Shown: positions 2,878-24,937, counted from the first letter of the stretch. The stretch: DNA of 37,816 nucleotides from Proteromonas lacertae (GCA_002245135.1 NGBS01001218.1:1-37816), one strand, 5' to 3'. Notes: a model not told the origin generated them from the letters alone. Made by a program: numbers and translations.

Positions 2878-3029
2878 GATCAGTAACACGCATAAGCTCA
2901 TAGCTTTTACTATCAACGTGTGTTTAGTGTACTTGTAAAGTCACTGGAGTAAGAATCATCGGAGATAGCTAGTTGGTCTTTTCCTTATCATTCAAAGAGC
3001 TACTTACAATCACCCGCAATTACTTATCA

Positions 3030-3308
3030 ATGGAAGCCATCGGTAACAACTTACTCCAGACCGTAGATTGCCCAAGTGATAACAACTACCCGAAGTTACC
3101 ATCAGAGAATGAAAGGCTAGTGTTAGAGATGTGTATGAACAGGGCCAAGCAGATCTATCATTCCCGGGTCAGTGGAGAAGTACGTATACTCTACGATGAA
3201 GCAATCTCTCGTTATTGTAAAGACGAGATCATCAGTAGTAGCTTCGGAAAGGCTTACAACCTCTTGGACACTTGCGAGAAGATTAACATGGAGAGTTGTC
3301 TTGGATAA
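3030..3308 (+). CDS. Hypothetical element-encoded protein; degenerate coding-like sequence continues to ~3660
   Basis: ATG at 3030 within ORF 2973..3308; same GC-richer composition as polB; no recognisable motif. Confidence 0.4.
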   Translation: MEAIGNNLLQTVDCPSDNNYPKLPSENERLVLEMCMNRAKQIYHSRVSGEVRILYDEAISRYCKDEIISSSFGKAYNLLDTCEKINMESCLG

Positions 3309-4041
3309 GATGCATTGATAAGAGACTTAAGGCATCGACTCAATGACCTGGAGTTGGAGTATGCAATGGATCGATTACAGATAGATGAAGAAGTTGATCT
3401 CAAGTGTCACGAGGTACTCATCTTACCATAACAAGAACTTCCTTGGAGTTGCCATTGCATCGGTAACTAGCTTATAAACATAACCCAGGTACTTTTCTTA
3501 CTTATCGATGTAGTCTTTGGTGAGTTGCTTAGCAATCATTTATTTTATTCCTTGGAGATAACATTATAAGCAAAGAAGATGAAGACGATTTATATCCTTG
3601 GAAGGGAAGTCACTCAAGATGATGGTCAGAAGATCCTTTATATTGATGATCACAAATAAAAGTAATACTGAGTTTTCTTTTGACTGTAAGCATCTTCTAT
3701 TATCATTACCTGTAATAGCATATAATTTCCTCCAAAATCTATACCAATAGTATATGAATTATCAATATCCTACATAAAATATAAATAGCATTTAAAAGCT
3801 TGTTAGGTTTGAAATTAAATCCTATTTTTTTATTTATAGAAAACAATTATGGACTATTTATGAATTATAATATTTAATAACTCATTAATAGCTGTTGTCA
3901 TGCTATTAATACTATTATTTATACTCTTCAAAGTTTCTCTAGTTTCGTTGTCTTTTTCTATTTGTTCTTAAATTTTTTCCTCAATAATATCGATTTTTAT
4001 TCTCATATTATTTTTTTCTGTTTCATTTGCATATTAAAAAG

Positions 4042-6293
4042 CAGTGATGTATAAAATGGTTAATGACCAGTTGGTTGAATTGCTGGTCTATTGGTCATTG
4101 ACCGTTCAGTGACCTTTAGGTGCTATTACTTGACCTTCTACATACAGGGTGATTTCTTTCTTAAAATCTATCATATAAACTATTTTTTAACCAATATATA
4201 TATTTTTTAAAAAAACCATTTTGACCATTGGTCAATTTATCTTTTTTTTGTAGAAAATATGTTTTAGTTATTTATTGCTAAATAAATTATTACAATAGTA
4301 TATTTGAATATATTAAATATGTAACAATGAATTTAAGCTTTTAAAAAATCATTTTGGCTTGTCAAACCATTTACATTTTCTTTGAAAACAATAAGAATGT
4401 ATAATATAAATCTATTATGTATAGGGAATCTCCAAAATTTCCAGCAGGAACTTGTAATGAAGTGCTCAATATGAAAGATAGCCTATGTTGTCTCGATTTC
4501 AAGTATACCAAGAGCTATTGGTCTTATTTTTTAAAAATTAGGGGCACAGATCAGTGTGTATGCTGTCTGTGCTCCAAACGTTACAAGTGCTTGTCGTCAA
4601 ATGGAAAAGCTATTAAAGGACATGTAATCAGTTGTCATAACTTCAGCGAAACAGTAATTGGGAGAATAAACAATCCAGAAATATCAAGAAATTTATTTAA
4701 TACGATAACAAATGATGGAGTATCAAGCACAATTTTAGACTCAATTAATTTTCGCAATTTCTGCAAGTCACTTAAATATGACTGCCCTAGAAGATTCAAC
4801 TACATCACGTACTTAGAAAACAACTACGAAGAAATCCTTAACAAGTTGAAACGAGAATTAAATAGAAGAAGAGTAGCGTTAGAAATAGATGGATGGAAAA
4901 GCGAAAAAGGAGATCAATACTTTGGAGTGTCATGTAGCTATATTGATAATTATTTTAATGTTATTAAAAGACTATTAGCTGTTAGAAAAGTTGATAATGA
5001 AACAGCATTAACTTTATCAGGTGAACTAAAGGAAATTATTGAACAATTCAATGTAGAGGTAATTAGTGTTACATGTGATAATGCCAAAAATGTATTGAAA
5101 ACAATAAGAATATTAGAAATACCTATAATTAGGTGTTTCGAACACTCCCTTCAGCTTTCTCTTAACAACTCGATAAATGAACAAATCCAAGCAGTGGTAA
5201 ATTATTTTGAAAATTTAGGAAAAGAATTACGAAAACCATCAAATAAGTCCAAATTTAATATAAATATTCCTACTTTGACGGTTACAAGATGGAATTCTAT
5301 GTTTATTATGTTACAAGCTGTAGATAATCATAAGAAAATTTTATTTGAATACTACGATAATGAAATGAAAAAGAAGAAACTTGGATTTGAATGTGATGAC
5401 AGTTTGTTGGAATATTGTAATAAAAATGCAGTAGAATATAAAGTGTTACAAAACCTCATAGATATTCTAAATCCTTTTTATCAGTTGACATTATTTTTGG
5501 AGAGCAGAACTGTTACATGTGGAATGGCGATGTTGAAATGTAAACAAGTAATTCATGAAATGAAGTTTAATTATCCCGAAAAGATAAAAAAATATTGCGA
5601 AGATATTAAAAGCGATATTCTTTCTAGAATTGAAACTATAAATGATGATAGTAACAACATTATATTGCTCTGCTGCTTGTTGGATTTAAGGGTGAAACCC
5701 TTTCTTACTAGAAGAATAATGTTTAATGATAGTGAATATAATAAAGCTGTCAGTATGTTATATGACGTAGTAAATTCTTTAAATGAAAAAGAAGAAGAAG
5801 AATTATTAGAAGAAACTACAACAAATGAACTTGATAAATACTTATTAAATGAAAATCCAACAAAAAAAAGAAAGACTATAAAAAGCGAAGTGGACAACTA
5901 CATTATGTATCAAGAAAGATTTAGTACCACAGATAATATAGGAGAGATTTGGTTAAGACTTAAACCGTCTTTTCCAACAATATTCACAGTTGCACAGATG
6001 TTTCTATCATCACAATGTAGTTCTAGTGAGGTAGAACGTGTATTTAGTAACGCTGGTTTTCTGAGTTCCATACACAGATCAAGTATTTCTCCAAAACATT
6101 TAGAAATGAAGTTAATTATAAGCATGAACAAATAAACTATTAATTACTTTGAAAGCATTATTGATTGATTATATTTGTTTGTTTAAATATAGTATTAAAA
6201 TTAGAAAAGTTTGAAGCTTGACCGACCGATGGTCAAAAAAAAATCGATGGTTTTTGACCATTGACCATTGGTCTACCATTCTATACAGCACTG
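4042..6293 (+). mobile_element. Complete hAT DNA transposon
   Basis: 19-bp TIRs CAGTGATGTATAAAATGGT (4042-4060) and reverse complement CAGTGCTGTATAGAATGGT (6275-6293), 17/19 identical; perfect 8-bp TSD TTAAAAAG at 4034-4041 and 6294-6301; many subterminal TGACC/GGTCA motifs. Confidence 0.97.
4417..6135 (+). CDS. hAT transposase, apparently intact (572 aa)
   Basis: BED-like Zn finger (W..F..CCLC..H...H), IDGW, TCDNAKN, RCFEHSLQL (CxxH), TRWNS, SSEVERVFS catalytic Glu, C-terminal dimerisation region. Confidence 0.96.
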   Translation: MYRESPKFPAGTCNEVLNMKDSLCCLDFKYTKSYWSYFLKIRGTDQCVCCLCSKRYKCLSSNGKAIKGHVISCHNFSETVIGRINNPEISRNLFNTITNDGVSSTILDSINFRNFCKSLKYDCPRRFNYITYLENNYEEILNKLKRELNRRRVALEIDGWKSEKGDQYFGVSCSYIDNYFNVIKRLLAVRKVDNETALTLSGELKEIIEQFNVEVISVTCDNAKNVLKTIRILEIPIIRCFEHSLQLSLNNSINEQIQAVVNYFENLGKELRKPSNKSKFNINIPTLTVTRWNSMFIMLQAVDNHKKILFEYYDNEMKKKKLGFECDDSLLEYCNKNAVEYKVLQNLIDILNPFYQLTLFLESRTVTCGMAMLKCKQVIHEMKFNYPEKIKKYCEDIKSDILSRIETINDDSNNIILLCCLLDLRVKPFLTRRIMFNDSEYNKAVSMLYDVVNSLNEKEEEELLEETTTNELDKYLLNENPTKKRKTIKSEVDNYIMYQERFSTTDNIGEIWLRLKPSFPTIFTVAQMFLSSQCSSSEVERVFSNAGFLSSIHRSSISPKHLEMKLIISMNK

Positions 6294-6301
6294 TTAAAAA
6301 G

Positions 6302-6421
6302 ATGTACTGCAGAGGTAGGTCATATAATAAAGTAAGTATAAAAGTAACAATTTTCCATCAAGACAAGTAAGAATATTCATTTAGTTTGTTTTAAAAGTGT
6401 CTAGTAAACAAATTGCCAACA
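6302..6421 (+). repeat. Fragment of the foldback/MITE family, interrupted by the hAT insertion
   Basis: CTGCAGAGGTAGGTCATATAATAAAGTAAGTATAAAAGTAACAATTTTCCATCAAGACAAGTAAGAATA.. closely matches 17069-17180. Confidence 0.85.
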
Positions 6422-6499
6422 GAAGATGTCATGCAGAAGATTTTACTCTCTTCTGTTAGTTACCAACAATGATATCAGGGATAAATCTTCCTTTGAAGA

Positions 6500-6720
6500 C
6501 TAGAGTGTCCTATTTCTTTTAGTAGGAATTAACAGAGTTGACTTTTGCGAGACTTTCATCGATTGCATCGATGAAGGCCCCGTAAAGTCAACTCTGAATC
6601 TAGAAAGGGATAGACTCCTAGAAAACTCGTTAAAACTCGTTAAGCTGCCTACGGGATTCCTCCTACGGGATCTTCTTCCCTATGAGATGATGAATCCCGT
6701 TTCAAACTAAAGGTGTGGAC
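6500..6720. repeat. Imperfect palindrome plus adjacent sequence; diverged inverted copy of the 21.9-22.2 kb terminus
   Basis: CAGAGTTGACTTT..CATCGATTGCATCGATG..AAAGTCAACTCTG (6533-6596), followed by AATCTAGAAAGGGATAGACTCCTAGAAAACTCGTTA and CCTACGGGATTCCTCC, all matching the reverse complement of ~21965-22123. Confidence 0.9.
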
Positions 6721-6821
6721 CACGCCATAAGTATAATTTCATATAGAAAACATATAGAAAACAACTATAATTTTAATCACGCTGTTTTAAATATTTATTT
6801 TGTATAGATATATTACATATT

Positions 6822-7637
6822 CTAATATAAGTAAGCTGTGCAGTATGGTTTCCATTTATAACAATTTACATTTTTAATGAGATTATTTTTACTAGCATTT
6901 ACTATAGCTTCACTATTTATATATACATCATCCAATAATAAAAGAGAATTTGGATGTGATATTAACTTTATATTAACAATATCATTATATATTACACTTT
7001 GTATGTGACATCCATCAATATGTATCACATTGCATTTACTAAAATTGCTATTAAGTTTGTTAAAATGAAATACTGTATATTCACTTTTACCCCATATCAT
7101 ATTCATTTTAAAAACTTGACTTATAGCATCATATGAATCTTTAGAATACTGATTTCCAATATCAAATCCATAATAATTAATTTCGTGATTAATAGAAGTG
7201 ATTAAAGTAATAGCTCCAACACCTAATTGAAAGCCAATTTCACAGATATTTTTTATTTTATTTTTTTTGTCAAATTCTTTGATTAAATAATTATACTTTT
7301 TCATTTGATAATAGTACATTCCAATATCTCCATCAGCATTACTTAATGCAGATGTAATATTTGTCATTCTTATAGATTTTGCATAGATCCTTATACTGTC
7401 AAGCAAAATAAACAATGGTAATTTATTGAGCTTGTGAATATATACTATACACTCCAATATTTTTTTAATGTTTGGAGATTTACTATATCCTTCTTGTATT
7501 ATGTTTAAATATTGATTTGAATAAAATAAATTATCATCATCATCTTTATCATATTTATAACTACATTTCTGATAGAAATATTCTTTAATAATGAAATTTA
7601 AAAAGATTATAATAAAGAGAATTGTTGTTATATTCAT
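6822..7637 (-). CDS. Membrane-anchored class I SAM-dependent methyltransferase (Methyltransf_24-like)
   Basis: N-terminal hydrophobic anchor; ICEIGFQLGVG motif I, YYGFD, IHIDGCH, LLLDD. Confidence 0.8.
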   Translation of the reverse strand: MNITTILFIIIFLNFIIKEYFYQKCSYKYDKDDDDNLFYSNQYLNIIQEGYSKSPNIKKILECIVYIHKLNKLPLFILLDSIRIYAKSIRMTNITSALSNADGDIGMYYYQMKKYNYLIKEFDKKNKIKNICEIGFQLGVGAITLITSINHEINYYGFDIGNQYSKDSYDAISQVFKMNMIWGKSEYTVFHFNKLNSNFSKCNVIHIDGCHIQSVIYNDIVNIKLISHPNSLLLLDDVYINSEAIVNASKNNLIKNVNCYKWKPYCTAYLY

Positions 7638-8147
7638 TGGTGATATATACTTAAAGTATGTTTTCCATGGGAAAGATTACAAAAATTTAATAATTTTTTC
7701 CACAAAGTCAATCAAGTTTTTAATGAATTGATCTACATATGTAGAAAAAATTATCAAAGTATAAATGCAACTTCTCTTTTTTGAAAATGAAGATGGTTTT
7801 AAAGTAGAAGTTATTGATTATGTAATTCAAGAAAATAGTAAAGAAGATTCAAATAATTCAAAAAGTAAGATTAACAACATCTTCGAATAATCTTTAAAAT
7901 ACTTATAAAATCTTTTTGTATCTCAATTATTTTTAGTGTATTTAGTATATTTATTCAAATATATAAAACAGTAAATTATTATCATTTTATTTCACCATTT
8001 TAATTGATTATAATTCATTTTTCTTGGAATGAAGGGTTTTGAGTTATACTGGTTTGACTGTAATGATAATAATTATAATTATATTCCAGAAAAAGGTATT
8101 ATTATTACAAGTTAATACAATTTGTAAATGCTCAATTGAAATATATA

Positions 8148-9185
8148 TTATTTGAAAATTAATTTACTCTGATTTTTCTTAATAATATATATTTCAATCG
8201 GATAAAATCCATGAATTAACATATACTTATTTAAACTATGAATAGTACTACATATATTGTATGGAAGATCTCTAATTATATATTCAGAAATATCTATCAG
8301 TGATATATTATTGTATTTGAACATATATCCCATAAAAACATCTTCAATCCAAATTTTTGGATTGACATATTTCATCGATATATTCAATAATACAACAGTA
8401 CTGTAAGGAATTATATATCCAACGCCTTGCAAATAAGGAGGATATATATTATCTTTAATAATATTTTTAGGAACATAGTGACTGTATTTTTTATTTCTAA
8501 GTATGAATGTTCTTTTAGATAATTTACCAATAGCATAATTCAAATAATTGCTTTGATAGTATTTTAGCCAGTTATAAATTAAAGGAACATTAACATATAC
8601 ATCAATATCAGATTTTAACAAATACTTAAATCGTATATTAATTGACCATGATATCATATGAGCTGTCTGTATACTTAAATTAAAATATGATGATATTTCA
8701 TTAAACTGAACAATATCATTATATAAACTAGCTTCATATTCTAATTTTCTGTTAATTTTATAATTATTGCTTTTTAAAGTGATATATATTATTATTGCTA
8801 ATTTTGTTTTATATAAAATTTTTCTTGAAATTAATCTTTCATAAAATTCTTCTGGTCTGCAATGTATAAATATAAGAAGATATACATAATTGCGCATAAG
8901 CTTTGGAGATAATAATATTTTTCTATCTAATGGGAAAGAAATAATATATTTTTCAGGATGTCCACCATATCCTATTTTTCTATATTTTGACCTTTTTCTC
9001 ATATCAAACAAATGTTTAGATAGACATAATGATGTAAAATTAGAATTAATTAATAAATCATGAAAGAATAATTGGTGTTCATTACGAAATGTATTATAAA
9101 ATAATAATTTAAAGATGTAATTACATATATAATTAAATAGATATACAGAAAATAGTATATATATAATAAAGAGGTAAAATATCAT
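8148..9185 (-). CDS. GT31 beta-1,3-galactosyltransferase-like glycosyltransferase
   Basis: Type II anchor; YNDIV..SYFNLS, YLLKSDIDVYVN (DxD), YPPYLQGVGYII, IEDVFMG. Confidence 0.9.
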   Translation of the reverse strand: MIFYLFIIYILFSVYLFNYICNYIFKLLFYNTFRNEHQLFFHDLLINSNFTSLCLSKHLFDMRKRSKYRKIGYGGHPEKYIISFPLDRKILLSPKLMRNYVYLLIFIHCRPEEFYERLISRKILYKTKLAIIIYITLKSNNYKINRKLEYEASLYNDIVQFNEISSYFNLSIQTAHMISWSINIRFKYLLKSDIDVYVNVPLIYNWLKYYQSNYLNYAIGKLSKRTFILRNKKYSHYVPKNIIKDNIYPPYLQGVGYIIPYSTVVLLNISMKYVNPKIWIEDVFMGYMFKYNNISLIDISEYIIRDLPYNICSTIHSLNKYMLIHGFYPIEIYIIKKNQSKLIFK

Positions 9186-9228
9186 ATTATAGAGATTTGA
9201 TTTATTTGGTTAATTGCTATAAAAAGAT

Positions 9229-10215
9229 ATAAATAAACTTTCTGAAATAGTTCTAATATTTAATGTTCTTTTAATTCTTTTAATAATAATTACAGTATGG
9301 AGAAAAAAATATTATACTAAATTGGATATGTGGTATGATTTTCTAGTAGTAAATAAGAAAAACAATAATTCTAAAATACTGTTTTATCCTTATATAGGAT
9401 GTGGATTTGCCAATAAAATACCCACATTAGCAAGTACGATTCTATTATCCATACTGTCTTATCATCCAATGTTTATAATAAATTGGGACGAAATTTTGTT
9501 CTATTTTCAAATTCCAAAAAATATATTTCTTAAATTTTACAATATCAGCTTTATAAAAACTTTTAACAAAAATAGTATAAATGTATTAAAAGAATTAAGA
9601 AATGGAATTCCTATAAGAATTTATACATATCATAGTTATGTATCATATATTTTATTATTCTATAATTTAACAAATAAAATAAAGCAAATTATGAAACAAA
9701 ATGAAGAAAAATATAGAAATATAGAAATGTTTGTTTATCAAACATTATTGATACTAACCTCAGTAATAAACAATCATATTTTACAGTTCAATAGATTCAA
9801 GAAAATATCCCACATAATAGTAGTACATATAAGAACAGGTTATTTATCAGACTTCGGAGAAAGCAATAATAGGTTCTATAACAATGGTAGTATTGATTTA
9901 TATATTAAAAATATTAACGCTGTTTTAAAGAATGATAATAAATCAAAAATTTATATAGTGTCTGATTCTACTACAACTAAAAAATATATAGAATCAGTTT
10001 ATAGGAATAATATTATAAAATTTACTATAAAAGGAAAAATATGTCATGCAAGATTTGCAATGCATAATAGTAATAAAATAAATAAATGCGTAGTTAAACT
10101 AATTGCAGAAAATTATATCCTTTCTGAATGTAATAATGTAATAGGAAGTTGTAGAAGTTCATATTTTAATTTAGCTTGCAAAAGGAAAAATGTTAAATAT
10201 TTATCAATTTATTAA
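9229..10215 (+). CDS. Alpha-1,2/1,6/O-fucosyltransferase superfamily protein; anchor is in frame upstream of the listed ORF, start codon reads ATA
   Basis: GFANKI, VVHIRTG (motif I), IYIVSDS (motif II), LSECNNVIGSCRSSY (motif III); frame open from 9223 with hydrophobic segment IVLIFNVLLILLIIITVW. Confidence 0.75.
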   Translation: MNKLSEIVLIFNVLLILLIIITVWRKKYYTKLDMWYDFLVVNKKNNNSKILFYPYIGCGFANKIPTLASTILLSILSYHPMFIINWDEILFYFQIPKNIFLKFYNISFIKTFNKNSINVLKELRNGIPIRIYTYHSYVSYILLFYNLTNKIKQIMKQNEEKYRNIEMFVYQTLLILTSVINNHILQFNRFKKISHIIVVHIRTGYLSDFGESNNRFYNNGSIDLYIKNINAVLKNDNKSKIYIVSDSTTTKKYIESVYRNNIIKFTIKGKICHARFAMHNSNKINKCVVKLIAENYILSECNNVIGSCRSSYFNLACKRKNVKYLSIY

Positions 10216-10238
10216 GAAATATTTTTACATTTTTTAAT

Positions 10239-11071
10239 TTATTTTATGTATAAATTAAAATCACTATTATTATATTTTGAATAGTGCCTATCAAAATGAG
10301 TTGAAAAGTTAAAAGATTTTGTATTATAACAGCTAAAATTAGAATTTTGTTGATAAAGCAGTATATAAAACACACTTTGATCTTGTCTGTGATTAGATCT
10401 ATTAGAGAATTTAGGAGCAATGCAATCTATATTTAAAGAACATTTGAAGAAGGATATTTTAATCCAACAACTCCTCCCGCACACATTGTTTTACTTCTAA
10501 TAATTGAATTTACATTTAAATATAATAATGTCTTTATATATGTAAATCCTTTTATAGTTGATCCTGCTCCAATTGTATAAAATGTATTTTTTTCAATTTC
10601 TTTATAAATTCTTAATAACGATCCTCGTATCAAACATCCTGCATCAAGCCATAATAATGGTTTTTTATATTTTTCATATGATAAAGAAATTATAATTGAT
10701 TTCCATGCATAAACACCTACATTTTTATTAATATTAACATGAGGAGGATAGTCAGTGTAGTTAAATTTATTATAAATTAAATCAATATTTCTCTGCTTTA
10801 TATGTAATATAGCAAAAAAACAAAGTAATTTGTTTATTTGTAGGGATGATAATCCTAAATTCCAAATAATTAAACACATGTCTTTTTCATATTTAAATAT
10901 ATTGTATATAAACAAAAGAAGTAAATGAAAATGATTTGATGAAGATCCTGTAACTAATATTTTATTTTTACTACAGGTATTTTTTAAATAGAGTTGATAA
11001 TTTACTTCATAATAATATATATATAACATCAATAACAATATCATAAAAAATGTCAAGAATGTAATACGCAT
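10239..11071 (-). pseudogene. DUF1647-like putative GT-A glycosyltransferase, frameshifted near 10440
   Basis: Anchor, VTGSSSNHF, WNLGLS, YAWKSIII, LLWLDAG in ORF 10433..11071; CIAP..NHRQDQSV continues in ORF 10239..10484. Confidence 0.7.
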
Positions 11072-11089
11072 AATATAATTATATATAAT

Positions 11090-11925
11090 TATAGATTATT
11101 GTAGGATTGATCGAAAATAATTTCTATATTATATATATAATCAATACCAAATTGTATTTCGTTGAATAATTATTTTTGTAATGAAATTATGTGCTTTTTC
11201 CAGAACCAAATTAATTTTTCTCCATTAAGTGGCAATTTAGGTAAATGAATATCTATTAGACTATTTTTATCTATTTTAGATATATTATTCGGCCATCTGG
11301 ATCTGTCAATTCTAGTGTTAAAATAATTTCTTGGACGATATACAACATTAAAATTAAATTTAGGCCAGTTTCTTATTTTATCTCTTATATATACTTCATC
11401 AAATTTTCAAAATATTTTTTTCCTTTCTTTAATTGAGTTTTAATTATTTTTGAAATAATTAGCTCTAAATTTTTACTTTTTACATCATCTTTTAGAATTT
11501 GTTTCTATATATATTTATTACCCACAATATAACACATTGCCCATCTTCCTGAATTATTTCCATATCCATATCCTTTTACACCAAATGATTTTATTGTTAA
11601 CATGTTATACTCAAAATCATCGAAATATTTCTTTGATACAGGAATCATATCAGCATCAGTTAAATAAAATAGATCATTATCTTTGGCACGTGAGCTAATT
11701 AAATATCCAAGTATCGTTAAATTTTGTCAAATATACAATAGCTCCTAGACTTATCATTATTTTTTTTATGTATAAAATATCACTACTTATATTATGATAT
11801 ACCATAATAACTATGCATTTATAACCATATAATTTCCACGCTTTAATAATAATTGGTAAATATAAAAAATAAGATAAATAACTAACAATGATAAGAAACA
11901 ATATTATGTATAATTTAATATTCAT
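11090..11925 (-). pseudogene. Fragmented putative glycosyltransferase (DxD type)
   Basis: Hydrophobic N-terminus; downstream frames give YLTDADMIPVSKKYF, DEVYIRDKIRNWPKF, RIDRSRWP; several frame breaks; left end approximate. Confidence 0.55.
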
Positions 11926-11932
11926 TATTATT

Positions 11933-12864
11933 TTATAAATACTTCCATTTACTATGATTAACTTTTCTGCTTCTATTTACATAGTAAGTAAAAGATTTAG
12001 GTATATGCAATGGATTTATATACCAATCAGAATGCATAACTGAATAAGGAGGAAGTGATATAAACATACTTCCATTAAATCTTTTAAAAATATTATTGCT
12101 TCTCCTTACTTGGAATATTGTGTCAACTGTAGCTTCTACCAATGAGTAGAATCTATTTTTCCAAAATATTTCGAAATGTGTTTTTGATACTATTTTATTT
12201 TGATCTTTAAAATGGTAATCTACAAGAGGGTAATAATTTGGTAAATTACTAACAACCATTGATGGACCTATTACATCTATCCCTTTACAATTATTAAGAA
12301 TATATATAAAATAATCCAATATATCTAGGGGAGTATATAACAAACACATATCTGGATCAGTAACAATATAGTATTTGCAAGAATGAATTTCAGTAATATT
12401 TTTAATTATATAAGGCAATTCATTATCTGCCATTTTCATCCAATCCAATGTTTTTAATTCTATATACTTTATCTTATTATTCCTAACTAAATTATGTAAA
12501 TATTTTTGAGTAGGAGCATATGTTGTAAAATGATCTAAAACTTACAAATCCAAGTTATATTCCTTTTTGAATAAAAATAGACTTTTCATTAAGACTTTTA
12601 ACGAATATAACCTATCTTTAGTTAAAATAAAAACAGGAATATATGATTTATATCTAAATTGCATATTTATAAAATTACATTTTAGTTTAGTGTATGTATT
12701 TCTATTGTGATTAAATAAATTATATTCCACTTCTTCATTATCTGAATGATCATTATTAATTTTCTTTTTATTATATAAATAATTAAACAAATTAAATAAA
12801 AGGCACATAAACACACAATTATAAAAGTCTTAATAATTAACATGTTTACATTCTTATAAAACAT
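11933..12864 (-). pseudogene. GT2/GT-A-like glycosyltransferase split over three ORFs
   Basis: Anchor (12682..12864), IPVFILTKDRLYSLKVLMKSL first beta-alpha unit (12542..12814), YYIVTDPDM DxD and VDTIF (11933..12448). Confidence 0.7.
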
Positions 12865-12868
12865 TCAA

Positions 12869-13894
12869 TTAATTATGTAAACTACAAGTTGTATTTAACT
12901 TATATGATGTGTTTATATAGTTTCTTTGTTTTATGAAGTGCAAAAAGGCAATTTCAGCTATTCTGAGTGAATGAATCATAAATGTAGTGTTTATATTGTA
13001 ATGGACTTTAGGAATATATTTATATGCTGCATATTTAAAAGATTCAAAACAGTCAAAAAAAGAAAAGTTTGCTTTTCTTGATAAAAGCCCAAATAACATA
13101 TCTTCTTCAAAGCTACATTTTATATTATATAGTTTTTTATCTATGTTACTAAGTAATTGATTTATTGATTTAGCTAAAAATATATATGACATTCCACTGG
13201 GATTTTTTTTTTTGTTATTATTTAAATTCCATATCTTACCAAGTACAAATGATATATTATGCTTCATTATTTTATTTATAGCTTTTTCTACTAACTCAAT
13301 ATTTAAATAAGTGTCAGTATCTTGTTTGATTATTATATCATAAAAATACTGATAATCTTTAACCCACATCAGAAAGTTATATGTTAACATACATAATTTA
13401 AAATAATCACAATAAAAATTAAACAATACAATATCTTTATACTTTTTCATTTCTTTATATAGTTGTTTATTGATGGTATTATTATTATGTAAACCAATAA
13501 AAAATAGTAGCTGTATATTATTATATGAATTGTATATTTTTCTAAATACATATCTGTGATAAAATAAAGATATATGACAATGAAGCGCTATTAGAATTTT
13601 TGACTTTTTTATTTTAAAAGAATGATTGTAAGTTGTTCTATTATGATAATAAATTAACGCACTATCTGTATTAATAATTTTTCTTTTAACATTATTATTA
13701 ATATATGTATATTTTCTACTGCATTTTATTGGAGCATTATCAAAACAACAAGCATTAATTAAAGATATTTCACTCATAAGCTTCATATCATCTGACAAAA
13801 CTAAATTGTTTATGAAGGTAATACATATATTATATGATATTATTATTATCATAATTACTAAATATAATAAGAAGTTTCTTTTTAATAATAACAT
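12869..13894 (-). CDS. GT31-like glycosyltransferase
   Basis: Type II anchor; LLFFIG, EMKKYKDIV..DYFKL, IIKQDTDTYLN, SGMSYIF, EEDMLFG. Confidence 0.85.
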   Translation of the reverse strand: MLLLKRNFLLYLVIMIIIISYNICITFINNLVLSDDMKLMSEISLINACCFDNAPIKCSRKYTYINNNVKRKIINTDSALIYYHNRTTYNHSFKIKKSKILIALHCHISLFYHRYVFRKIYNSYNNIQLLFFIGLHNNNTINKQLYKEMKKYKDIVLFNFYCDYFKLCMLTYNFLMWVKDYQYFYDIIIKQDTDTYLNIELVEKAINKIMKHNISFVLGKIWNLNNNKKKNPSGMSYIFLAKSINQLLSNIDKKLYNIKCSFEEDMLFGLLSRKANFSFFDCFESFKYAAYKYIPKVHYNINTTFMIHSLRIAEIAFLHFIKQRNYINTSYKLNTTCSLHN

Positions 13895-13936
13895 AAATTA
13901 CACATAAAAATTAGAAAAATTGAGAATGAAATTTAG

Positions 13937-14865
13937 ATGAATATAGTAAATATAATAATTACTCATTTTTTATTTACTATATTTATGGTTTATTTATTTA
14001 CTACAAAAAGCAACAATACCACAATAATTATCTATCTTGTATTTCCTAGTAATGGTAAAGGAGGTCCTAAATCTTTATCAACTTATATTCATAAAGCAGT
14101 AATAAAGTGGAATGAAGATAACAAACTATCAAAAACAACAAAACTATTTTATAAAGAATCAGTTAAAATAGATTTTATAAAAAGAATCACAAATAAGCAA
14201 AACACATTTGTATGGTTACAAACAGCTAGCTTTATTCATTTGTATAATAATCCTTCATATAATGGTATTTTTTCAAGAATAATATATGGTCCAAATGTTA
14301 CTCCATTAAATTGGTATAATTCAATAAATAATACATATGAAAAGTATATTTGGATATGCTTTACATTCTGTTAGAGTGAAAAAGCAAATAATGAAGAACA
14401 ATAAATGTAATTCATTTGATTATAAATACTTATATTTAAATATATGTAAAATATGCTGATAAAAATAAAAGAAATGAAGAAAATAGTTTAATAGAATATT
14501 TGAAACAGAAATATAGAATTGAAATTATTAAGTATGGTAATCATTCAAGAGAATCTATATTATCACTAGCTAATGAATCAAAATTTATTATTTATTTCTC
14601 ATTCTATGATACAGGTACACTTTCATTATTAGAAATGAAATCAATGGGAGCATGGCCGATATCTCATCAAAAAGAATTTATTGAGAAGGGATATGGAAGC
14701 TATGTTAAAGAATTGGATAGCGATATTTATAAATCATTTATAATGTTAGATAATATATATAGAACAATTTTTTCCCCTATATTGCTTGTAAATAATGTTT
14801 ATAATCGTTTAAATTGTTTAAAATTATTACAAAAATCAGTAAAATATATTAGAACTATGATATAG
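13937..14865 (+). pseudogene. GT-B fold (GT4-like) glycosyltransferase, interrupted
   Basis: Anchor, GKGGP, IIYGPN in ORF 13937..14374; FSFYDTGTLSLLEMKSMGAWP resembles the GT4 ExFGxxxxEAxxxGxP motif in ORF 14500..14865. Confidence 0.6.
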
Positions 14866-14872
14866 AAAAATT

Positions 14873-15728
14873 ATGACTTTATAAGAATATAGAAGGTATT
14901 ATTTCTAAATTCTTATTTTTTCTTATTTCTTATTATATATTAAACAGATTTATATACAATAATAAACGAAACAAATGTTCTCATTCAAACAAAGTATCAA
15001 TTAATCTACATGATTTGTTTATTTATAATTATTCAATTACATCCAATTATAATTCGTTTTCTGCAGTTATATTTTTTATAGTATCTTCTTCTCTGCATAT
15101 TAACAAAAGAAATATAATAAAGAAAACATGGGTAAATTCATGCTTACATGTTTCATGCAAATATTATTTTGTTATAGCTACTAAAGGATGTTATGAAAAT
15201 ATTAAAAAAGAAAATAATTATGATATTATTGGTATAGACATTATTGATAGTTATTATAATTTAACTATATTAACTAGTAACATATACAGATACTATATAT
15301 TATTTAACTTAAAATCAGATTTTATAATTAAAATAGATGATGATATATTCCCTAATATTCCTCTCATCTATTTGTACTCTTATTTATATATAAATAAGAA
15401 TATGATTTCCGGATACTATTATCCAAGCATGAAGGTAAATAGAAATATTAATTCTTCAGTATATTTACCTAAATCTTTGTACAAATTTAGTACATTTCCT
15501 AATTTTGTTGCTGGTGGGTTTGTTATTATTAATTCTAATTATATTATTCCCTTGTTTAAAGAATTAATGAAAGAAAGAAGAATATTATATAGAGAAGATA
15601 TGCATATGGCTATAATATATAATAAATTAAATATTAACTTTCAAAAAATTAATAAATATTATCATAGAAAACAGATTAAAATAATGTTAAGCAATAAAGT
15701 AAAAGATATATGTTGGCATGGATTTTAG
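14873..15728 (+). CDS. GT31 glycosyltransferase; start region appears damaged, so 5' coordinate is approximate
   Basis: RNIIKKTW, DII..DSYYNLT, FIIKIDDDIFPN, FPNFVAGGFVII, REDMHM, WHG; hydrophobic coding-like segment upstream of 15015. Confidence 0.85.
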
Positions 15729-15807
15729 TGTTTAAAAATTAATGAATTATCAATATTCATAGACTTAAATTATTATTTAATTTAGTAGTAGATTTAAAAT
15801 CATAGAT

Positions 15808-16145
15808 CTATATTATTAAACATTTTTTAAGATAATCAGTCAAAGTATCAGAAAAAGACAATGTCAAATGATTAGCGTCTTTATAAACAATAATTCCGTT
15901 TATTACAAATTGAATCTTTTTCTTTTTGTAAATATATTTATTCATATTGCAATATTTTACTTTTTGATTATATATAAATGGTATTAAAGTAATAGATGAA
16001 TTAATTCCATCTATTGCAAAACATTCTCTTTTTTCTGTAACAGAGTAAATACAATTTAAAGGATTGATATGTAATAAAGGAATATCATTTATTATAAATA
16101 TATGAGATGTATAATTAGATAATATATATAATAATAGTAAATAAA
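15808..16145 (-). pseudogene. C-terminal SGNH-domain fragment of an O-acyltransferase/esterase, 5'-truncated
   Basis: IVYKDANHLT (DxxH) near the C-terminus with preceding Cys residues; N-terminus replaced by unrelated GC-richer sequence at ~16146. Confidence 0.6.
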
Positions 16146-16240
16146 GGTTCTGGCACACCGAGCCGTATGACTCGGGCTCCTGGCACACCAAACCAAACTT
16201 TTTAAAAATACGTGACCTATGTCATATTAGGTCATATTTT
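16146..16240. mobile_element. Putative orphan transposon end
   Basis: CTGGCACACC twice, flanking a CCGAG..CTCGG inverted repeat; TGACCTA..TAGGTCA inverted repeat; abuts the truncated SGNH gene; no partner end seen. Confidence 0.4.
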
Positions 16241-16565
16241 ATTTTTGCATTTTCTAGAATATTCTAATATAATTTTATAGAATTTTCTTTCTATTTTTTT
16301 AAATCTAATTTACATATATTAATAAACAAACACCATTTCAATTAATGATATTAATTTAATTAATTATTTATTATATTTTAATTTTAATTATCAATCTTCT
16401 TCATCCACATCTACTACGTCAAGTTTGTTTTGTTTTAAAAGCATAATTAGCTGCTTTTTTTCATATTCTTCTTTTTCTCTTTCTTCTTTTCTTCTTTTAA
16501 CTTCTTCTTCATTATTTACTTTAGTAAAGAATCTGATTTTTTTGTTTTATTCTCTTCTTCACTTT

Positions 16566-17203
16566 TGTTGTGCGCCGTTTGTCATAGTTGGCCATTTGTC
16601 TATCAGACACTTTTAAAACTAATTAAATGTATATTCTTACTTGTCTTGATGAAAAATTGTTACTTTTATACTTACTTTGTTATATAACCTACCTCTGCAG
16701 AATACTTTTTTGTTAATATAAATAGTTTTAATATTTGCGCCGTTTGTTTTCTAGAAATTTTTAAAGCAAACTAAATGTATATTTAGTTAATATAGACTAA
16801 AATATATTAGATGAAATGATTAGAATATAATAATTATTAAATCTTTCTATATAAAAAAAGAAATGTAAAAAATAGGCTTGAGTGAGGCTTGATTCTATAT
16901 TTTCTTTTATTATTTTAAATGCTTTATGATCAACATTAAGTTGTTCTAAACATTTCAGCTAATATATTTTAGTCTATATTAACTAAATATGTATTTAGTT
17001 TGATTCATAAATTTCTAGAAAACAAACGGCGCAAATATTAAAACTATTTATATTAACAAAAAAGTATTCTGCAGAGGTAGGTCATATAACAAAGTAAGTA
17101 TAAAAGTAACAATTTTTCATCAAGACAAGTAAGAATATACATTTAGTTAGTTTTAAAAGTGTCTGATAGACAAATGGCCAACTATGACAAACGGCGCACA
17201 ACA
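16566..17203. mobile_element. Foldback/MITE element with ~250-bp TIRs and TGT..ACA termini
   Basis: TGTTGTGCGCCGTTTGTCATAGTTGGCC.. (16566 to ~16820) is the near-perfect reverse complement of ~16950-17203; spacer of ~130 bp; no TSD evident. Confidence 0.88.
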
Positions 17204-17649
17204 CATATGATATATTTCCTATTGAATAAAAAACATAGTTGTTTAAAACAAAGTATTTGTTAAGTTGATTGAAATGAATCATTCTTAATGTATACCATGT
17301 AGTTATATTAATTATTATAAATTTATATAGTATATGAATTTAGATTATTAAAATATACACTAATACCCTGAATTATATTAAAATATTTATGTAATATAAG
17401 ATTTGAATTCGATAACATTCCAAGAATATATTCATAAATCCTGCAAAAAATAATATAATAAGAAAATGAAACGTTATTTGATAAGTTAGCTGAAAATATA
17501 ACTATACTCGCTATGCAAGTAATATATAGTATATTCCTGTAATATAAAAAACAAGATAGGAGAATTGGATATATTACATATATTTGCTGCTGAAGAAATA
17601 TATACCAAAAATGTAAAACATACGATGGATTAAATTTTATAACTTTGCT

Positions 17650-17889
17650 AATATAGACTAAAATACATTAGCTGAAATGATTAGAATATAATAATGTTGA
17701 TCATAAGACATTTAAAATGAAAAAAGAAAATATAGAATCAAGCCTCACTCAAGCCTATTTTTTACATATCTTTTTTTATATAGAAAGATTTAATAATTCT
17801 TACATTCTAATCATTTCAGCTAATGTATTTATATTAACAAAAAAGTGTCTGGTAGACAAATGGCCAACTATGACAAACGACGCACTACA
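17650..17889. repeat. Internally deleted copy of the same MITE family
   Basis: Contains the inverted spacer (TAGAATCAAGCCTCACTCAAGCCTA) and the right end GACAAATGGCCAACTATGACAAACGACGCACTACA. Confidence 0.85.
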
Positions 17890-17899
17890 AGCTGGAAGC

Positions 17900-19600
17900 T
17901 TTTAAGGAATGTCATCAGTTCTCTTTTCGTTGCGTTGGTTATTCTAATCCAGTAGGTTTATCCTGATATGTAGTTCCACATTGTTAATAAGGTCTCATTC
18001 ATCGTTTATACTACATCCTTAATAGTCAACAACCTCACTGATAAAGCTGTTTACTTGATTCACAACCAGGTTGTTGAGGTTGTTGACTTTGCCTTGGACG
18101 TCTATCACTCTTGTCTGGCAGTCTCCTATCTTTCAATGTACTTCATTGACCTTGGTTAATTGAGCTGGTGAATAGAAGCTATTGACATTCCCGGTATTGA
18201 ATCCATCGATCTTGGTTCTGATAGCAGCTGCATTGTTGATAGCTGTATCGATCAGTCCTTTACGGGTATTGTTAAAGAAGCCATCCAAGTTCCTTCGGAG
18301 GTTGTCTTCTTCAGTCCTTCTAGCCACGCCGCAGGTTGCATTCACATCATTGATACTTAGAGAATGCACCTTGATCTTGATTGCATCGGTGTTGGCTAAG
18401 TCAGTGAGCTTCGTAAGGCTCTTATCATCCACCGTAGTGATGTACTTGATCATATCGTAGACGTTAACATCCCCGATGTTGAGACTCTCGCATAATGAAT
18501 TCAACAAGGTATTTAGACTATCCAATTTCTCATCCTCTGATCCCTTCAATTGATCGATTGAAGTGTTAGTGGATTCAAGGATATTGCTAACATCCTCCAT
18601 GCTCTTATACAACTCTGGTAATTGCTTCTCCGTGTACTGCTTAAGTTCATTGCTGCAAGTAGCGATATTGCTCAAGGATGTGATAGTCGTATCTCCGAAG
18701 TCTTCAGGGATCTTGTTGTTAAGCAAAGTATATAGATACATCTCTTATATCATAACCTGCCCTGGCCTTCAACAACTTTACCTACCTCCCGAGAAGTACC
18801 TTGCTTACTCTATCCACACGATGAACTTCAACTCCTTACGATTGCTAGCTGATGGATGTAGATGACTTTATCGGCGTTATGATGATTCTATTCCGATAAG
18901 ACTTATACGATGGTCAGAAGCCTCCTTTGAAGTTCACCTACTCTCCTTAGACTTCCAAGGATCTACTAATCGTCTCTCTATTCCAGATGCTCCTTTACCT
19001 TCATGGACTTCTCGGACGTGACAGACATTACCTATGATATGCTTCGTCTTCACTCTCGGTTCTAGCAGTCTACGATCACTGCTCTGGTAAGTACCTTAAT
19101 CATCTCTTGGCATCTCTTGAAGAGCTACTTGTGATCCTTACCGATACCTATCTCTTGAGCTGATGGTAACCCTTTCAAGTGACAACTCCTTCTAGTTCTT
19201 GTTCATCGTAGTTGTTGATCCTCGGTAATGTCCTAGCCTTCAATCAGATCACTACTAGTCTCAGTAATGTTGTTGTTGAAGTCAGTGGCTTTATCTATCT
19301 ATTGAGAAGCACCTTACGATCGATAGCTAATAGACTCTTGGACATCTATGCCGGTGTTGTTACTTGAGGAGTATACGATATCTCGGGTCTACTGACTTAC
19401 TTACTTACTTACTTGTGATGATTCCTAGCATCACAAGTAAGGACTACTCAGGTAAAGGATTATCGATCACACTTCCTATAGTCTGTATTGCAACTCTTTA
19501 TGTACCTACAACTACTTCACGATCTTCAGAGTCATTGATCCAAGGTTGCTATCTCGGGGTTGTTGATGTCCTTGCTATTATTGTCATCTCCGAGACTCCT
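17900..19600 (-). pseudogene. Heavily decayed large virus-like gene(s), possibly fibre/coiled-coil; longest open piece is 18133..18741
   Basis: GC-richer composition like polB; 202-aa helical heptad-like fragment; many stops, frameshifts and an (ACTT)n expansion. Confidence 0.45.
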
Positions 19601-19708
19601 TTAGTTTATTGAATTGATTACTTACCATGTCCTTGGGTTGATCATCTCCGTAAGGCTCCTTGAATTGATTATTTCTATTGTCCTCGACTATCCCAAGGTA
19701 ACATTTTG

Positions 19709-20171
19709 CTAAGTACCGACAGAGTTGTTAGAGTTGAAGATGCGTCTATTGCTGAGGTTATTGATGATTACTTTGCTGAGCGAGGAGTAGTAGTAAGTTC
19801 TATCTCTCGGGAGTTCATTGAGTTGTACTATCTGAAGCGTCTTGAGGGTACGTCTTCTCCTTGATAATAACCTATTCTGTTCTCGGCAGTCCCGACATGA
19901 CGATGAGTAATAACCTTCCTTAGGCATTTGAAATTCCTCCAAGGGCTTATCATGCTTACAAGTACGGCATACTACTTCCTTTTACTGTAGCTTCTCCATT
20001 CACTTTAAGTTGTTTCCATTGAACGGACTGCTTCCTATAATATCGCTCCATTGCCTGGTTGTTCTTGGCCCGGCATGATGGACATTGCTTATAACATCCT
20101 TTACCTCTATCCTTTGGGGTTGGGATCATAGGCTTCTTATACTTACTACAAATGGCTTCGGTATCATCCAT
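19709..20171 (-). pseudogene. Tandem zinc-ribbon protein with one frameshift
   Basis: Joining the frames at ~19980 gives CSKY..CPSCR then CRTCKHDKPLEEF..SSSCRDCR (CxxC..K...F..CxxC), a type common in DNA-virus proteins. Confidence 0.65.
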
Positions 20172-20229
20172 TGAATAACTACTTCCTTGTCGGCGTTGAA
20201 GCTTATCCAACTTCCCTGTGTTAGTCGAT

Positions 20230-21680: not shown

Positions 21681-21990
21681 TAGAACCTCCCGTAGTTACC
21701 ATTTGGTAACTTGTTACCAATTGTAAACTCCCGGTTCCACGATTGGTTTCCACGGTTCAATTAAAAGCCCTTACAAGATCACCAGCGTAGCAAGGAGAGT
21801 CAAGAGCGTGATTAGATTCATCACCTCGAGGTAACCAACACTTCTAGATAGCTTCCAGGAGTACCCGTAGGAGATCGTCTCATAGATATGTATAGGTAGG
21901 TATAGAAATAGCTTAGAGGAGTTCCCGTAGGGAAATAGACCCCGTTGAGAAGTAGACCCTGTTGGGAGGAATCCCGTAGGAACCTTACGT

Positions 21991-22190
21991 AAACGGGACT
22001 ATGGTACAATGTGCCAGAGTTCTAACGAGTGTTCTAGGAGTCCGTCCCCTTCTAGATTCAGAGTTGACCTTTACGGGAGCTTCATCGATGCAATCGATGC
22101 AGCTCCCTTAAAAGTCAACTCTGAATCTAGAAGGGGACGGACCCCTAGAACACTCGTTAGAACTCTGTGAAAGTGTCCCAGGGTCCCATT
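21991..22190. repeat. ~200-bp imperfect palindrome (hairpin-terminus-like) at the boundary of GC-richer and AT-rich DNA
   Basis: Core 22015-22167: CAGAGTTCTAACGAGTGTTCTAGGAGTCCGTCCCCTTCTAGATTCAGAGTTGAC pairs with GTCAACTCTGAATCTAGAAGGGGACGGACCCCTAGAACACTCGTTAGAACTCTG; centre CATCGATGCAATCGATG. Confidence 0.95.
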
Positions 22191-22387
22191 TATATACTAT
22201 ATAATAATATAATATAATATATATATATATAGAATTTACATTTTAGAAATTAGAATAATAATTATAATACTAATTGAATATACATTTTTTTTTGAGTTTT
22301 TCTTGAAGATCAGTTGATATAGGAATGACTTCCACTGCCGATGAATTAGTCAATCTTATTTCGTTATCTTTATTACTATGTTAAATA

Positions 22388-23842: not shown

Positions 23843-24680
23843 TTATTTTTTCCAAATACTTTTTAATTTATCAGCAGCACGACCTAGAAATCCAAATGGA
23901 TTATGTCTCGATTCATAACACTCATTTTCACTTTTCGCAAATTCTTTCAACTATTCTCTTTGTTTATCACTTATCTTACTATATCAATATAATGATAATA
24001 ATAATAATATATACGTTGGTATTCTTACAGTATAATGCAATATTTGATAGCCTTTACTAAATCCATTTGATTTTACAACAGCTTTATTTCTTAATATCAA
24101 TCTATCACCATTATCTATACCAGGTGGGATTTTAACTTCTACTACTTTTGTTTTTCTTTCCTATATATAAATGATAATAATAATTATATATATATATATA
24201 CTATTCCATTACCATGACAATGACTACATTTCTCTTGTTTTGTACCTGGTGCTTATTATAATAAATATAATAAATATATTATATCCACTACCACTGCATT
24301 TACTACATTGAACCATTCTTGACAATTTTACATCTTTATTACATCCTTTTATTGATTCTAAAAGTGTTAAATTTAAATTATAATGTAAATCATTTCCTCT
24401 TTCAGGAATATCTGTATTTTGATCCATTTCGAATATGTCTTCAAAATTAATACTACCTCCTCCATTGCTAGAATAACTGGCAAATTCACGGAATATATCT
24501 TCAGCAGACATTCCTCCATTGAAACCACCAAAACCACCTTATCCTCCCATCATGTTGGGATCTACACCTGCAAAACCGAATTGATCGTATTTCTTATGTT
24601 TTGCATCTGTTACTTCTACAAATTTCTTCTGTGCTTCTTTATCGCCTTTATTTCTATCTGGGTGATATTTTTTGTTTTTA
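23843..24680 (-). pseudogene. dnaJ: Type I DnaJ/Hsp40 pseudogene with short spliceosomal introns
   Basis: [17 protein letters not shown] region, EDIF, CSKCSGSG, CSHCHGNG, VKIPPGIDNG; GT-AG introns 23979-24014 (36 nt) and 24161-24201 (41 nt); stops at 24539-24541 and 23951-23953; internal deletions. Confidence 0.9.
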
Positions 24681-24937
24681 CATAATTCATTTTCCATAGA
24701 CACAATATAAAATACAAAACATAATAATAATTATAACATGTCATTAACTATTTAAATACTAGTAAAGTATGAATTATCCCATCTTGTTGAATCAATAGCT
24801 AATGATTTTGTTCTTTCCTATCTATTTCATTATTACAAAAACTAATTATCTTCATTAATTAAAGAAGAGGTAGATCTAGCTCTCTTTCTAAACATTCCTG
24901 ATTTTAATAAGTTGAATATCAACATCAATATTACTAT

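What the first reader, a model, noticed from the sequence alone, without database searches (positions are those of the whole stretch)
6822..16145. Operon-like, intronless eukaryotic glycan biosynthetic gene cluster
Seen: a methyltransferase, three GT31s, a fucosyltransferase-like gene, three GT-A-like genes, a GT-B gene and an SGNH fragment are packed with gaps as small as 4-7 bp (11925/11933, 12864/12869). Most have Golgi-type type II anchors, and none shows introns although host dnaJ does. Known: GT31 beta-1,3-galactosyltransferases plus alpha-1,2-fucosyltransferases build blood-group-like epitopes. Inference: a complete pathway for a galactosylated, fucosylated, methylated/acylated surface glycan, possibly for mimicry or antigenic variation.
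Basis: partly seen in the sequence, partly recalled or inferred. Interest (0 to 1): 0.75.

Follow-up and report, generated by a model that had tools for sequence, protein, structure and literature searches.

The report
Decaying protist sugar-coat gene cluster
Ten sugar-modifying genes or gene remnants with no evident introns sit packed nose to tail in an AT-rich genome that is likely from a Blastocystis-like gut protist; seven of them are broken, so this is likely a dying copy of a cluster that would decorate the cell's sugar coat in the Golgi.

Summary
The cluster is real. Ten genes or remnants fill about 92% of 6822-16145, with gaps of 4-79 bp (one of 510). Eight have an N-terminal hydrophobic anchor, and no intron is needed to read them. 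Supported identities: a Methyltransf_24 methyltransferase, three GT31s only 24-27% alike, a fucosyltransferase (GT37/GT23-like by profile and fold, not the GT11 blood-group type), a GT2-like gene, DUF1647 and a weak SGNH fragment. The 'GT-B' gene and the 11925 gene rest on motifs only.

The rest carry 7 frame changes, 3 in-frame stops, a missing start codon or a truncation. The neighbouring dnaJ is also a pseudogene, and the block lies among hAT, Polinton-like and foldback remnants. Mixed strands rule out a single operon, and no sugar-nucleotide genes are present.

Intact relatives at 47-65% identity exist in unnamed sequencing-run contigs; the only relatives with an organism name are Blastocystis proteins at about 30%. 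Conserved clustering elsewhere and expression could not be shown. Best reading: a recently decaying copy of an old Golgi surface-glycan gene cluster of a low-GC Blastocystis-like protist.

The parts
6822..7637 (-). Type II-anchored class I SAM methyltransferase (Methyltransf_24), intact 271 aa; likely glycan O-methyltransferase
   Evidence: PF13578 E 2.5e-6; 8 of 9 hits at 47-61% identity; 1 of 64 otherwise invariant columns changed; distant relatives fused to GT64/DUF273 in L001 and L002
7640..8115 (+). Possible decayed ORF remnant in the 510-bp gap; unidentified
   Evidence: Broken reading-frame pieces; no Pfam match in three frames
8148..9185 (-). GT31a, beta-1,3-glycosyltransferase (B3GALT/B3GNT-like), intact 345 aa with DxD and ED motifs
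   Evidence: PF01762 E 4e-21; 11 of 12 hits at 55-65%; family profile hits B3GALT5 E 1.8e-18 and B3GNT2 E 2.5e-18; 4 of 87 invariant columns changed, within the relatives' range of 0-7
9223..10215 (+). Fucosyltransferase of the GT37/GT23/POFUT superfamily; frame open for 330 codons, but the first in-frame ATG (9328) lies behind the anchor helix
   Evidence: 16 relatives; atlas 0.96 to O-FucT/FUT8/NodZ clusters; AF2 pLDDT 83, Foldseek FUT8 E 2.6e-8 and AtFUT1 E 5.6e-7; profile hit AtFUT4 E 1.5e-8; ATG positions
10239..11071 (-). DUF1647 protein (GT-A-like, recalled), anchored; one frame change near 10433-10490
   Evidence: PF07801 E 5e-7; frames
11089..11925 (-). Anchored DxD-motif gene of unassigned family; two frame changes (about 11700-11726 and about 11410) and in-frame stops at 11505-11507 and, probably premature, 11170-11172
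   Evidence: Frames; no glycosyltransferase family match
11933..12864 (-). GT2-like (GT-A) glycosyltransferase, anchored; frame change after the anchor and in-frame TAA at 12542-12544
   Evidence: Relative P0001, 51% over 248 ungapped residues with Tyr opposite the stop; P0001 scores 0.98 to GT2 (PF00535) clusters
12869..13894 (-). GT31b, open 341 aa; about 18 residues shorter than GT31a in the acceptor-side region, activity uncertain
   Evidence: PF01762 E 8.8e-11 over profile positions 17-126 of 195; alignment
13937..14865 (+). Putative GT-B glycosyltransferase (motif resemblance only), anchored; two frame changes (about 14340-14374 and about 14440-14459)
   Evidence: Frames; no GT hit; fold model failed
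14873..15728 (+). GT31c; ATG at 14873 is out of frame with the 14877-15728 ORF; the stop directly after the last conserved His may be premature
   Evidence: PF01762 E 9.4e-20
15808..16145 (-). C-terminal SGNH-domain fragment of an O-acetyltransferase-type gene, cut at about 16145 by unrelated GC-richer sequence
   Evidence: PF19040 E 0.0024, below cut-off; PHROG O-antigen acetylase E 5.8e-4; junction
4042..6293 (+). Intact hAT transposon left of the cluster (12-bp terminal repeats, perfect 8-bp target duplication, 572-aa ORF)
6296..6720 (.). Left flank: right end of a foldback repeat, then a remnant of the terminal hairpin of the 41%-GC element at 17890-22192
16559..17210 (.). Foldback repeat element (276-nt arms, 94% complementary) right of the cluster; its outer end faces the cluster
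23845..24750 (-). dnaJ pseudogene: introns of 31, 41 and 36 nt, in-frame stops at 24539-24541 and 23951-23953, 8-residue gap in the J domain

Best explanation
This is a tightly packed block of ten glycan-modifying genes, seven of them broken, and it is likely a recently decaying copy of an old Golgi surface-glycan gene cluster of a low-GC, Blastocystis-like gut protist. Mechanism of a working copy (inferred): anchored enzymes in the Golgi lumen build beta-1,3-linked Gal/GlcNAc chains (three divergent GT31s plus GT-A and perhaps GT-B enzymes), cap them with fucose from GDP-fucose, and add O-methyl and O-acetyl groups. Donors and transporters would come from genes elsewhere. The product would be part of the surface coat. 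Transcription would run in five units, two pairs sharing divergent spacers of about 40 bp. Shown: layout, family assignments for 8 of 10 genes (SGNH weakly), and the breaks. Inferred: host lineage, Golgi location, common pathway, product, and the existence of a working copy elsewhere.
For: Old, assembled cluster rather than a tandem array: the three GT31s share 24-27% identity (against GT31a), and at least six different families are present. Host-type genes: third-position GC is 13-17%, like dnaJ's 18%, against 22-54% for the mobile-element ORFs. The only relatives with an organism name are two Blastocystis proteins. Region GC is about 21%, matching the 21-23% reported for tortoise-lineage Blastocystis (PMC12129017). 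Non-random layout: Blastocystis ST1/4/7 genes have introns in 84.6-94.6% of cases (PMC5608401), and median spacers are 137-186 or 645-719 bp, against 4-79 bp here. Real decay: a stop faces Tyr in an ungapped alignment; dnaJ has two stops, an AT..AG intron and an 8-codon gap; runs of five or more A/T are as common in the frames without a shift (5-15) as in those with one (4-10); the 2.25-kb hAT element is letter-perfect at its target duplication. Recent decay: MTase and GT31a keep normal conservation and branch lengths. Intact family members exist elsewhere. The methyltransferase type is fused to anchored glycosyltransferases in L001 and L002.
Against: No intact or clustered copy could be shown: there is no host genome, and 8 scans returned no relative (one search was for the capsid-like gene), one returned 2 distant loci. 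The curated GT list of Blastocystis ST1 shows no clustering: at most 2 of 125 GT tags in any 10 consecutive tags, and the nine GT31 tags are 53 or more apart (assumes tags follow scaffold order, and divergent families may be unlisted). The Blastocystis link rests on two proteins at about 30% identity that form a distant branch; all close relatives are unnamed. Nearest atlas clusters for the FUT and GT2 genes are mostly viral or bacterial. Some frame changes lie near A/T runs, and no reads were laid.
Confidence: 0.55

Rival explanations
1. The block is cargo of a large DNA virus or mobile element of the protist (a glycosylation island like those of giant viruses) that integrated and is now eroding.
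For: Virus-like layout (no evident introns, 4-42 bp gaps, mixed strands). Nearest atlas clusters are 93-100% viral (top three) for the FUT and 88-91% viral (3 of 4 rows) for the GT2 relative. The best Foldseek E-values are to giant-virus proteins, 8e-11 against 2.6e-8 for FUT8. The window holds PolB, capsid-like and ATPase-like genes. Methyltransferase relatives occur in virus-like marine contigs.
Against: No relative in IMG/VR for 4 cluster queries or in phage records for 2. No viral core gene lies inside the block. Third-position GC matches dnaJ, not the neighbouring elements. The flanking inverted repeats point their outer ends at the cluster, so they do not enclose it. The atlas warns that its taxa are no sign of transfer. 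A gut-virus survey found no gene flux between Blastocystis and egoviruses (10.1101/2024.03.23.586382).
Confidence: 0.2
2. The cluster is alive, and the breaks are errors of a long-read assembly (or, in part, unrecognised short introns).
For: Frame changes outnumber stops 7 to 3. PolB, the capsid-like and ATPase-like genes and the second hAT are frameshifted too. MTase and GT31a show no excess change. One break fits a 31-nt GT..AG intron.
Against: In-frame stops by substitution, a multi-codon gap in dnaJ, a physically truncated SGNH gene, and long intact ORFs with as many homopolymer runs.
Confidence: 0.15
3. The genes are unrelated processed copies or fragments of dispersed host genes that piled up in a repeat-rich region, with no common pathway.
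For: Pseudogenes and transposon remnants surround the block; ST1 glycosyltransferases are dispersed.
Against: All eight assignable genes are glycan-modifying. Full-length frames abut at 4-42 bp with no poly(A) tails or UTR remnants. Relatives are themselves single ORFs.
Confidence: 0.05

Closest known systems
Leishmania SCGR/SCA cluster on chromosome 2 (PMC6993435, passages)
   Same: A parasitic protist clusters predicted beta-1,3-galactosyltransferase genes with capping (arabinosyl) transferases for a surface glycan, with extensive gain and loss between species.
   Different: Two paralogous families in a genome that is intron-poor and polycistronic throughout (recalled). Here at least six unrelated families plus methyl- and acyl-transfer genes lie on mixed strands in a lineage where most genes have introns.
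Megavirinae glycosylation gene clusters (PMC10117803, passages)
   Same: Compact clusters of 6-33 genes with glycosyltransferases and a sugar methyltransferase, varying between clades.
   Different: They include nucleotide-sugar synthesis and glycosylate virion fibrils; the paper has no mention of Golgi or transmembrane. Here there are no donor-synthesis genes and 8 of 10 products are anchored.
Blastocystis GT31 beta-1,3-galactosyltransferase proposed for host-glycan mimicry (Eme et al. 2017, not held; seen only as described in PMC6115916)
   Same: Same enzyme family and probably the same genus; the coat is reported to contain fucose.
   Different: A single gene; ST1's nine GT31 tags are dispersed and its curated list names no fucosyltransferase family.
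Plant arabinogalactan/xyloglucan enzymes (GT31 GALTs with GT37 FUT1/FUT4)
   Same: GT31 plus GT37-like fucosyltransferase chemistry on galactose chains (profile hit AtFUT4 E 1.5e-8).
   Different: 12-14% structural-alignment identity to AtFUT1; the plant genes are not clustered with each other (recalled).
Bacterial capsule/O-antigen loci (recalled)
   Same: Co-located transferases and modifying enzymes for a variable surface glycan.
   Different: No polymerase, flippase or sugar-nucleotide genes here; mixed strands; eukaryotic type II anchors.

Membership tests
GT31 (PF01762) | Galactosyl_T domain above the gathering score | tested here: met
   76.1, 42.4 and 71.7 bits against cut-off 23; GT31b covers only profile positions 17-126 of 195
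GT31 (PF01762) | DxD and ED motifs plus C-terminal His | tested here: met
   Invariant in alignment A5
GT31 (PF01762) | Donor is UDP-Gal (galactosyltransferase) rather than UDP-GlcNAc | tested here: inconclusive
   B3GALT5 70.4 bits and B3GNT2 69.9 bits
GDP-fucose transferase superfamily (GT23/GT37/GT65) | GT-B variant fold with conserved H-x-R and S-D motifs | tested here: met
   Foldseek FUT8, AtFUT1, NodZ and POFUT1; H202, R204 and S247 invariant in 15 sequences
GT11 alpha-1,2-fucosyltransferases (blood-group H type) | Glyco_transf_11 domain match | tested here: not met
   0 of 15 family members; only weak fold hits to viral GT11-labelled models
GT37 alpha-1,2-fucosyltransferases | XG_FTase domain match | tested here: inconclusive
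   1 of 15 members at E 0.0067; family profile to AtFUT4 E 1.5e-8
GT2 | Glycos_transf_2 match | tested here: inconclusive
   No Pfam hit; atlas 0.98 to clusters with 21-38% PF00535 (run on relative P0001)
GT-B glycosyltransferase (13937-14865) | Two Rossmann domains with the GT4-type E-x7-E-like motif | tested here: inconclusive
   Motif resemblance recalled; no GT hit; model pLDDT 43
Operon | Genes on one strand in one transcript | tested here: not met
   Seven genes minus, three plus, five runs; co-transcription of the four-gene run 10239-13894 untested
Functional biosynthetic gene cluster | Intact member genes | tested here: not met
   3 of 10 intact
Functional biosynthetic gene cluster | Clustering conserved in related genomes | tested here: inconclusive
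   Relatives' contigs could not be fetched; no related loci; ST1 list unclustered
Functional biosynthetic gene cluster | Co-expression and a common product | not testable with these tools
   Needs RNA and glycan data for this organism
Cargo-carrying TIR transposon | Inverted repeats enclosing the cargo with outer ends facing away | tested here: not met
   Outer ends of 6296-6420 and 16566-16711 both face the cluster
Giant-virus glycosylation cluster / endogenous giant virus | Nucleotide-sugar genes or viral core genes within the block | tested here: not met
   None among the ORFs of 6822-16145

The most novel reading that the evidence does not exclude
Blastocystis-like gut protists carry swappable, intron-free 'glycan islands' of Golgi enzymes, possibly of viral origin, that are duplicated, exchanged and lost like bacterial capsule loci and so set coat serotypes. 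This window would hold a discarded island.
Probability: 0.2. Interest if true: 0.8.

Novelty: new variant of a known kind. Interest (0 to 1): 0.45.

Why it matters
Golgi glycosylation genes of eukaryotes are normally dispersed. A 4-42 bp-spaced cluster of unrelated Golgi enzymes would point to how the carbohydrate coat of Blastocystis, the commonest gut eukaryote, is made and varied. It names candidate enzymes, including an uncatalogued fucosyltransferase family for a coat reported to hold fucose, and it links DUF1647 and two unassigned families to glycan synthesis by neighbourhood. The value is reduced because this copy is mostly dead and no live cluster was shown.

Tried and rejected
No host genome is held. 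No sequencing run was listed for 6800-16200, so no reads were laid. Related-locus scans found nothing for GT31a, MTase (one search gave two 29-30% marine loci), the GT-B N-piece, DUF1647 or the capsid-like gene. The FUT alignment was too divergent to scan. The flanking-repeat pattern had 0 viral matches. tblastn in phage records found nothing. The single-sequence model of the GT-B piece was unusable. The VIA fold search was busy twice. The first tree script gave no answer; trees were redone with FastTree on the existing alignments. Single-sequence PDB searches for FUT, the GT-B piece and DUF1647, and the MTase profile, gave nothing significant. Five look-ups in earlier findings were empty. Rejected: TIR-enclosed cargo (repeat orientation); a single operon (strands); introns as the general cause of the breaks (ungapped across the stop; one search leaves one plausible candidate); stop codons made by polyadenylation (genes have their own stops, and the downstream motif was not found at the ends of cluster genes); GT11 assignment.
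Full report
SETTING. The window is an AT-rich eukaryotic region; 7001-17000 is 19-23% GC. No host genome is held. Around the finding lie a frameshifted protein-primed PolB at 41-44% GC (571-2877), an intact hAT element (4042-6293), a foldback repeat (16559-17210), a 41%-GC element ending in a hairpin (17890-22192), an integrase remnant, dnaJ, a second broken hAT, and Polinton-like capsid and ATPase genes (32399-36696; that label is recalled, with no confident family hit).

OBSERVATION. Ten genes or remnants cover 8596 of 9324 bp. Gaps are 510, 37, 23, 17, 7, 4, 42, 7 and 79 bp. Such open frames are not chance (3e-12 for 270 codons). Eight of ten have an N-terminal hydrophobic segment of 1.9 or more. 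Strands run -, -, +, -, -, -, -, +, +, -: five runs, two divergent pairs with 37- and 42-bp spacers and two convergent pairs. It is therefore not one operon. The four-gene run with 17-, 7- and 4-bp gaps could be co-transcribed; that is untested.

IDENTITIES. MTase: PF13578, with 8 of 9 hits full-length at 47-61%. Distant relatives (29-30%) in two marine contigs are the C-terminal domain of anchored GT64-DUF273 fusions, which suggests a glycan substrate (inference). Three GT31s pass Pfam's cut-off; GT31b and GT31c are 24% and 27% identical to GT31a. The GT31a family is equally near B3GALT5 and B3GNT2, so the donor is open. The FUT-like gene has no informative Pfam hit itself but has 16 relatives. 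A model at pLDDT 83 matches FUT8, AtFUT1, NodZ and POFUT1, and the family profile ranks plant GT37 first. None of 15 members matches GT11. The 11933-12864 gene has one relative, P0001, which scores 0.98 to GT2 clusters. 10239-11071 is DUF1647. 15808-16145 is a weak SGNH/O-acetylase fragment. The 11925 gene and the 'GT-B' gene remain unassigned. No nucleotide-sugar synthesis or transporter gene is present.

Only MTase, GT31a and GT31b run from ATG to stop. The others show 7 frame changes (DUF1647 one, 11925 gene two, GT2-like one, GT-B-like two, GT31c one), 3 in-frame stops (12542-12544, 11505-11507 and, probably premature, 11170-11172), no start codon before the FUT anchor, and a truncated SGNH gene. 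The GT2-like stop faces Tyr in a 248-residue ungapped alignment, so it is not an intron. dnaJ has introns of 31, 41 and 36 nt, but also two stops, an AT..AG intron and an 8-residue gap in the J domain. Homopolymer runs are no commoner in frameshifted than in unshifted genes. I read the decay as real. Against this reading: no reads were laid, several breaks lie near A/T runs, and one fits a 31-nt intron. MTase and GT31a differ at 1 of 64 and 4 of 87 otherwise invariant columns, within their relatives' range, and have ordinary branch lengths. The decay is therefore recent, or these two genes are still in use.

HOST AND ORIGIN. Of the clusters looked up, the only members with an organism name are two Blastocystis proteins, at about 30% identity and on a distant branch. 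All closer relatives are unnamed Logan proteins with the same AT-driven composition. GC, intron sizes and own stop codons fit the low-GC tortoise lineage described in PMC12129017 (passages). I put a Blastocystis-like host at roughly 75%; no core-gene tree was made. Third-position GC of the cluster (13-17%) matches dnaJ (18%), not the mobile elements (22-54%). The inverted repeats at 6296-6420 and 16587-16711 first looked like transposon ends, but both outer ends face the cluster, so it lies between elements, not inside one. A viral origin stays open, but no relative was found in viral contigs.

CLUSTERING ELSEWHERE. Not shown. The contigs of the close relatives could not be fetched. In the curated CAZyme table of Blastocystis ST1 (PMC5608401 supplement 28, read whole), the 125 GT rows with locus tags (one GT77 row given by scaffold coordinates left out) show at most 2 in any 10 consecutive tags and 6 close pairs, against 7.0 expected at random. 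One hint of local duplication: P0036 has two NCBI accessions four numbers apart.

MECHANISM (inferred). In a working copy, lumenal type II enzymes would extend beta-1,3 Gal/GlcNAc chains, add fucose, and O-methylate and O-acetylate the product for the surface coat. That coat is reported to contain fucose and GlcNAc (PMC5608401 and PMC6115916, passages). Mimicry by a Blastocystis beta-1,3-galactosyltransferase was proposed by Eme et al. 2017 (not held; seen only through PMC6115916). O-methyl and O-acetyl capping with a GT37/GT23-like fucosyltransferase fits a variable, protective coat at least as well as blood-group mimicry (my inference).

COMPARISON AND NOVELTY. The nearest systems are the Leishmania SCGR/SCA cluster (PMC6993435, passages) and Megavirinae glycosylation clusters (PMC10117803, passages). 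Seven paper searches (listings and abstract starts) showed no report of such a cluster in Blastocystis. Caveats: the first version of preprint PMC10690189 is listed with 6 uses of 'glycosyltransferases' and 3 of 'surface coat', but only version 2, with none, could be read. Subscription journals are not searched, bioRxiv supplements are closed, and most PMC5608401 supplements were not read.

VERDICT. A real, unusual layout with largely correct enzyme classes, but mostly pseudogenes, not an operon and not a complete pathway. New variant of a known kind; interest 0.45.

Noticed in passing
window 4042-6293: Intact hAT transposon with 12-bp terminal repeats, a perfect 8-bp target duplication and a 572-aa transposase ORF, inserted into a copy of the foldback repeat; possibly still active.
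   Followed up: yes
window 28956-37267: Polinton/virophage-like gene block (capsid-like 32399-33358 and 33390-34821, ATPase-like from about 34907) with frame changes; no relative of the larger capsid-like ORF in viral contigs. Labels recalled.
   Followed up: partly
window 1-3660 and 17890-22192: Two 41-44% GC elements in a 21-29% GC background: one with a frameshifted protein-primed PolB, the other with tandem repeats and a 200-bp terminal hairpin whose remnant recurs at 6533-6638.
   Followed up: partly
window 16559-17210, 17644-17890, 6296-6420, 25037-25167: A foldback repeat family with 276-nt arms and several partial copies.
   Followed up: partly
window 23845-24750: dnaJ pseudogene with three short introns, one starting AT instead of GT.
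   Followed up: yes
window 25771-28173: Second hAT element with 19-bp terminal repeats, no matching target duplication and a broken transposase.
   Followed up: partly
window 22780-23060: Integrase core (rve) remnant, E 0.0076.
   Followed up: partly
L001:4051-13619: Marine contig with Snf7, Arf, an anchored LicD-GT64-DUF273-Methyltransf_24 fusion, a Stealth-GH125 fusion and a 735-aa orphan ORF; looks like a large DNA virus (untested).
   Followed up: partly
L002:759-5803: Anchored DUF273-GT64-double-methyltransferase fusion next to a GT10 fucosyltransferase.
   Followed up: partly
window 16146-16235: GC-richer stretch with a short direct repeat and a palindrome that cuts off the SGNH gene; may be a transposon end.
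   Followed up: no
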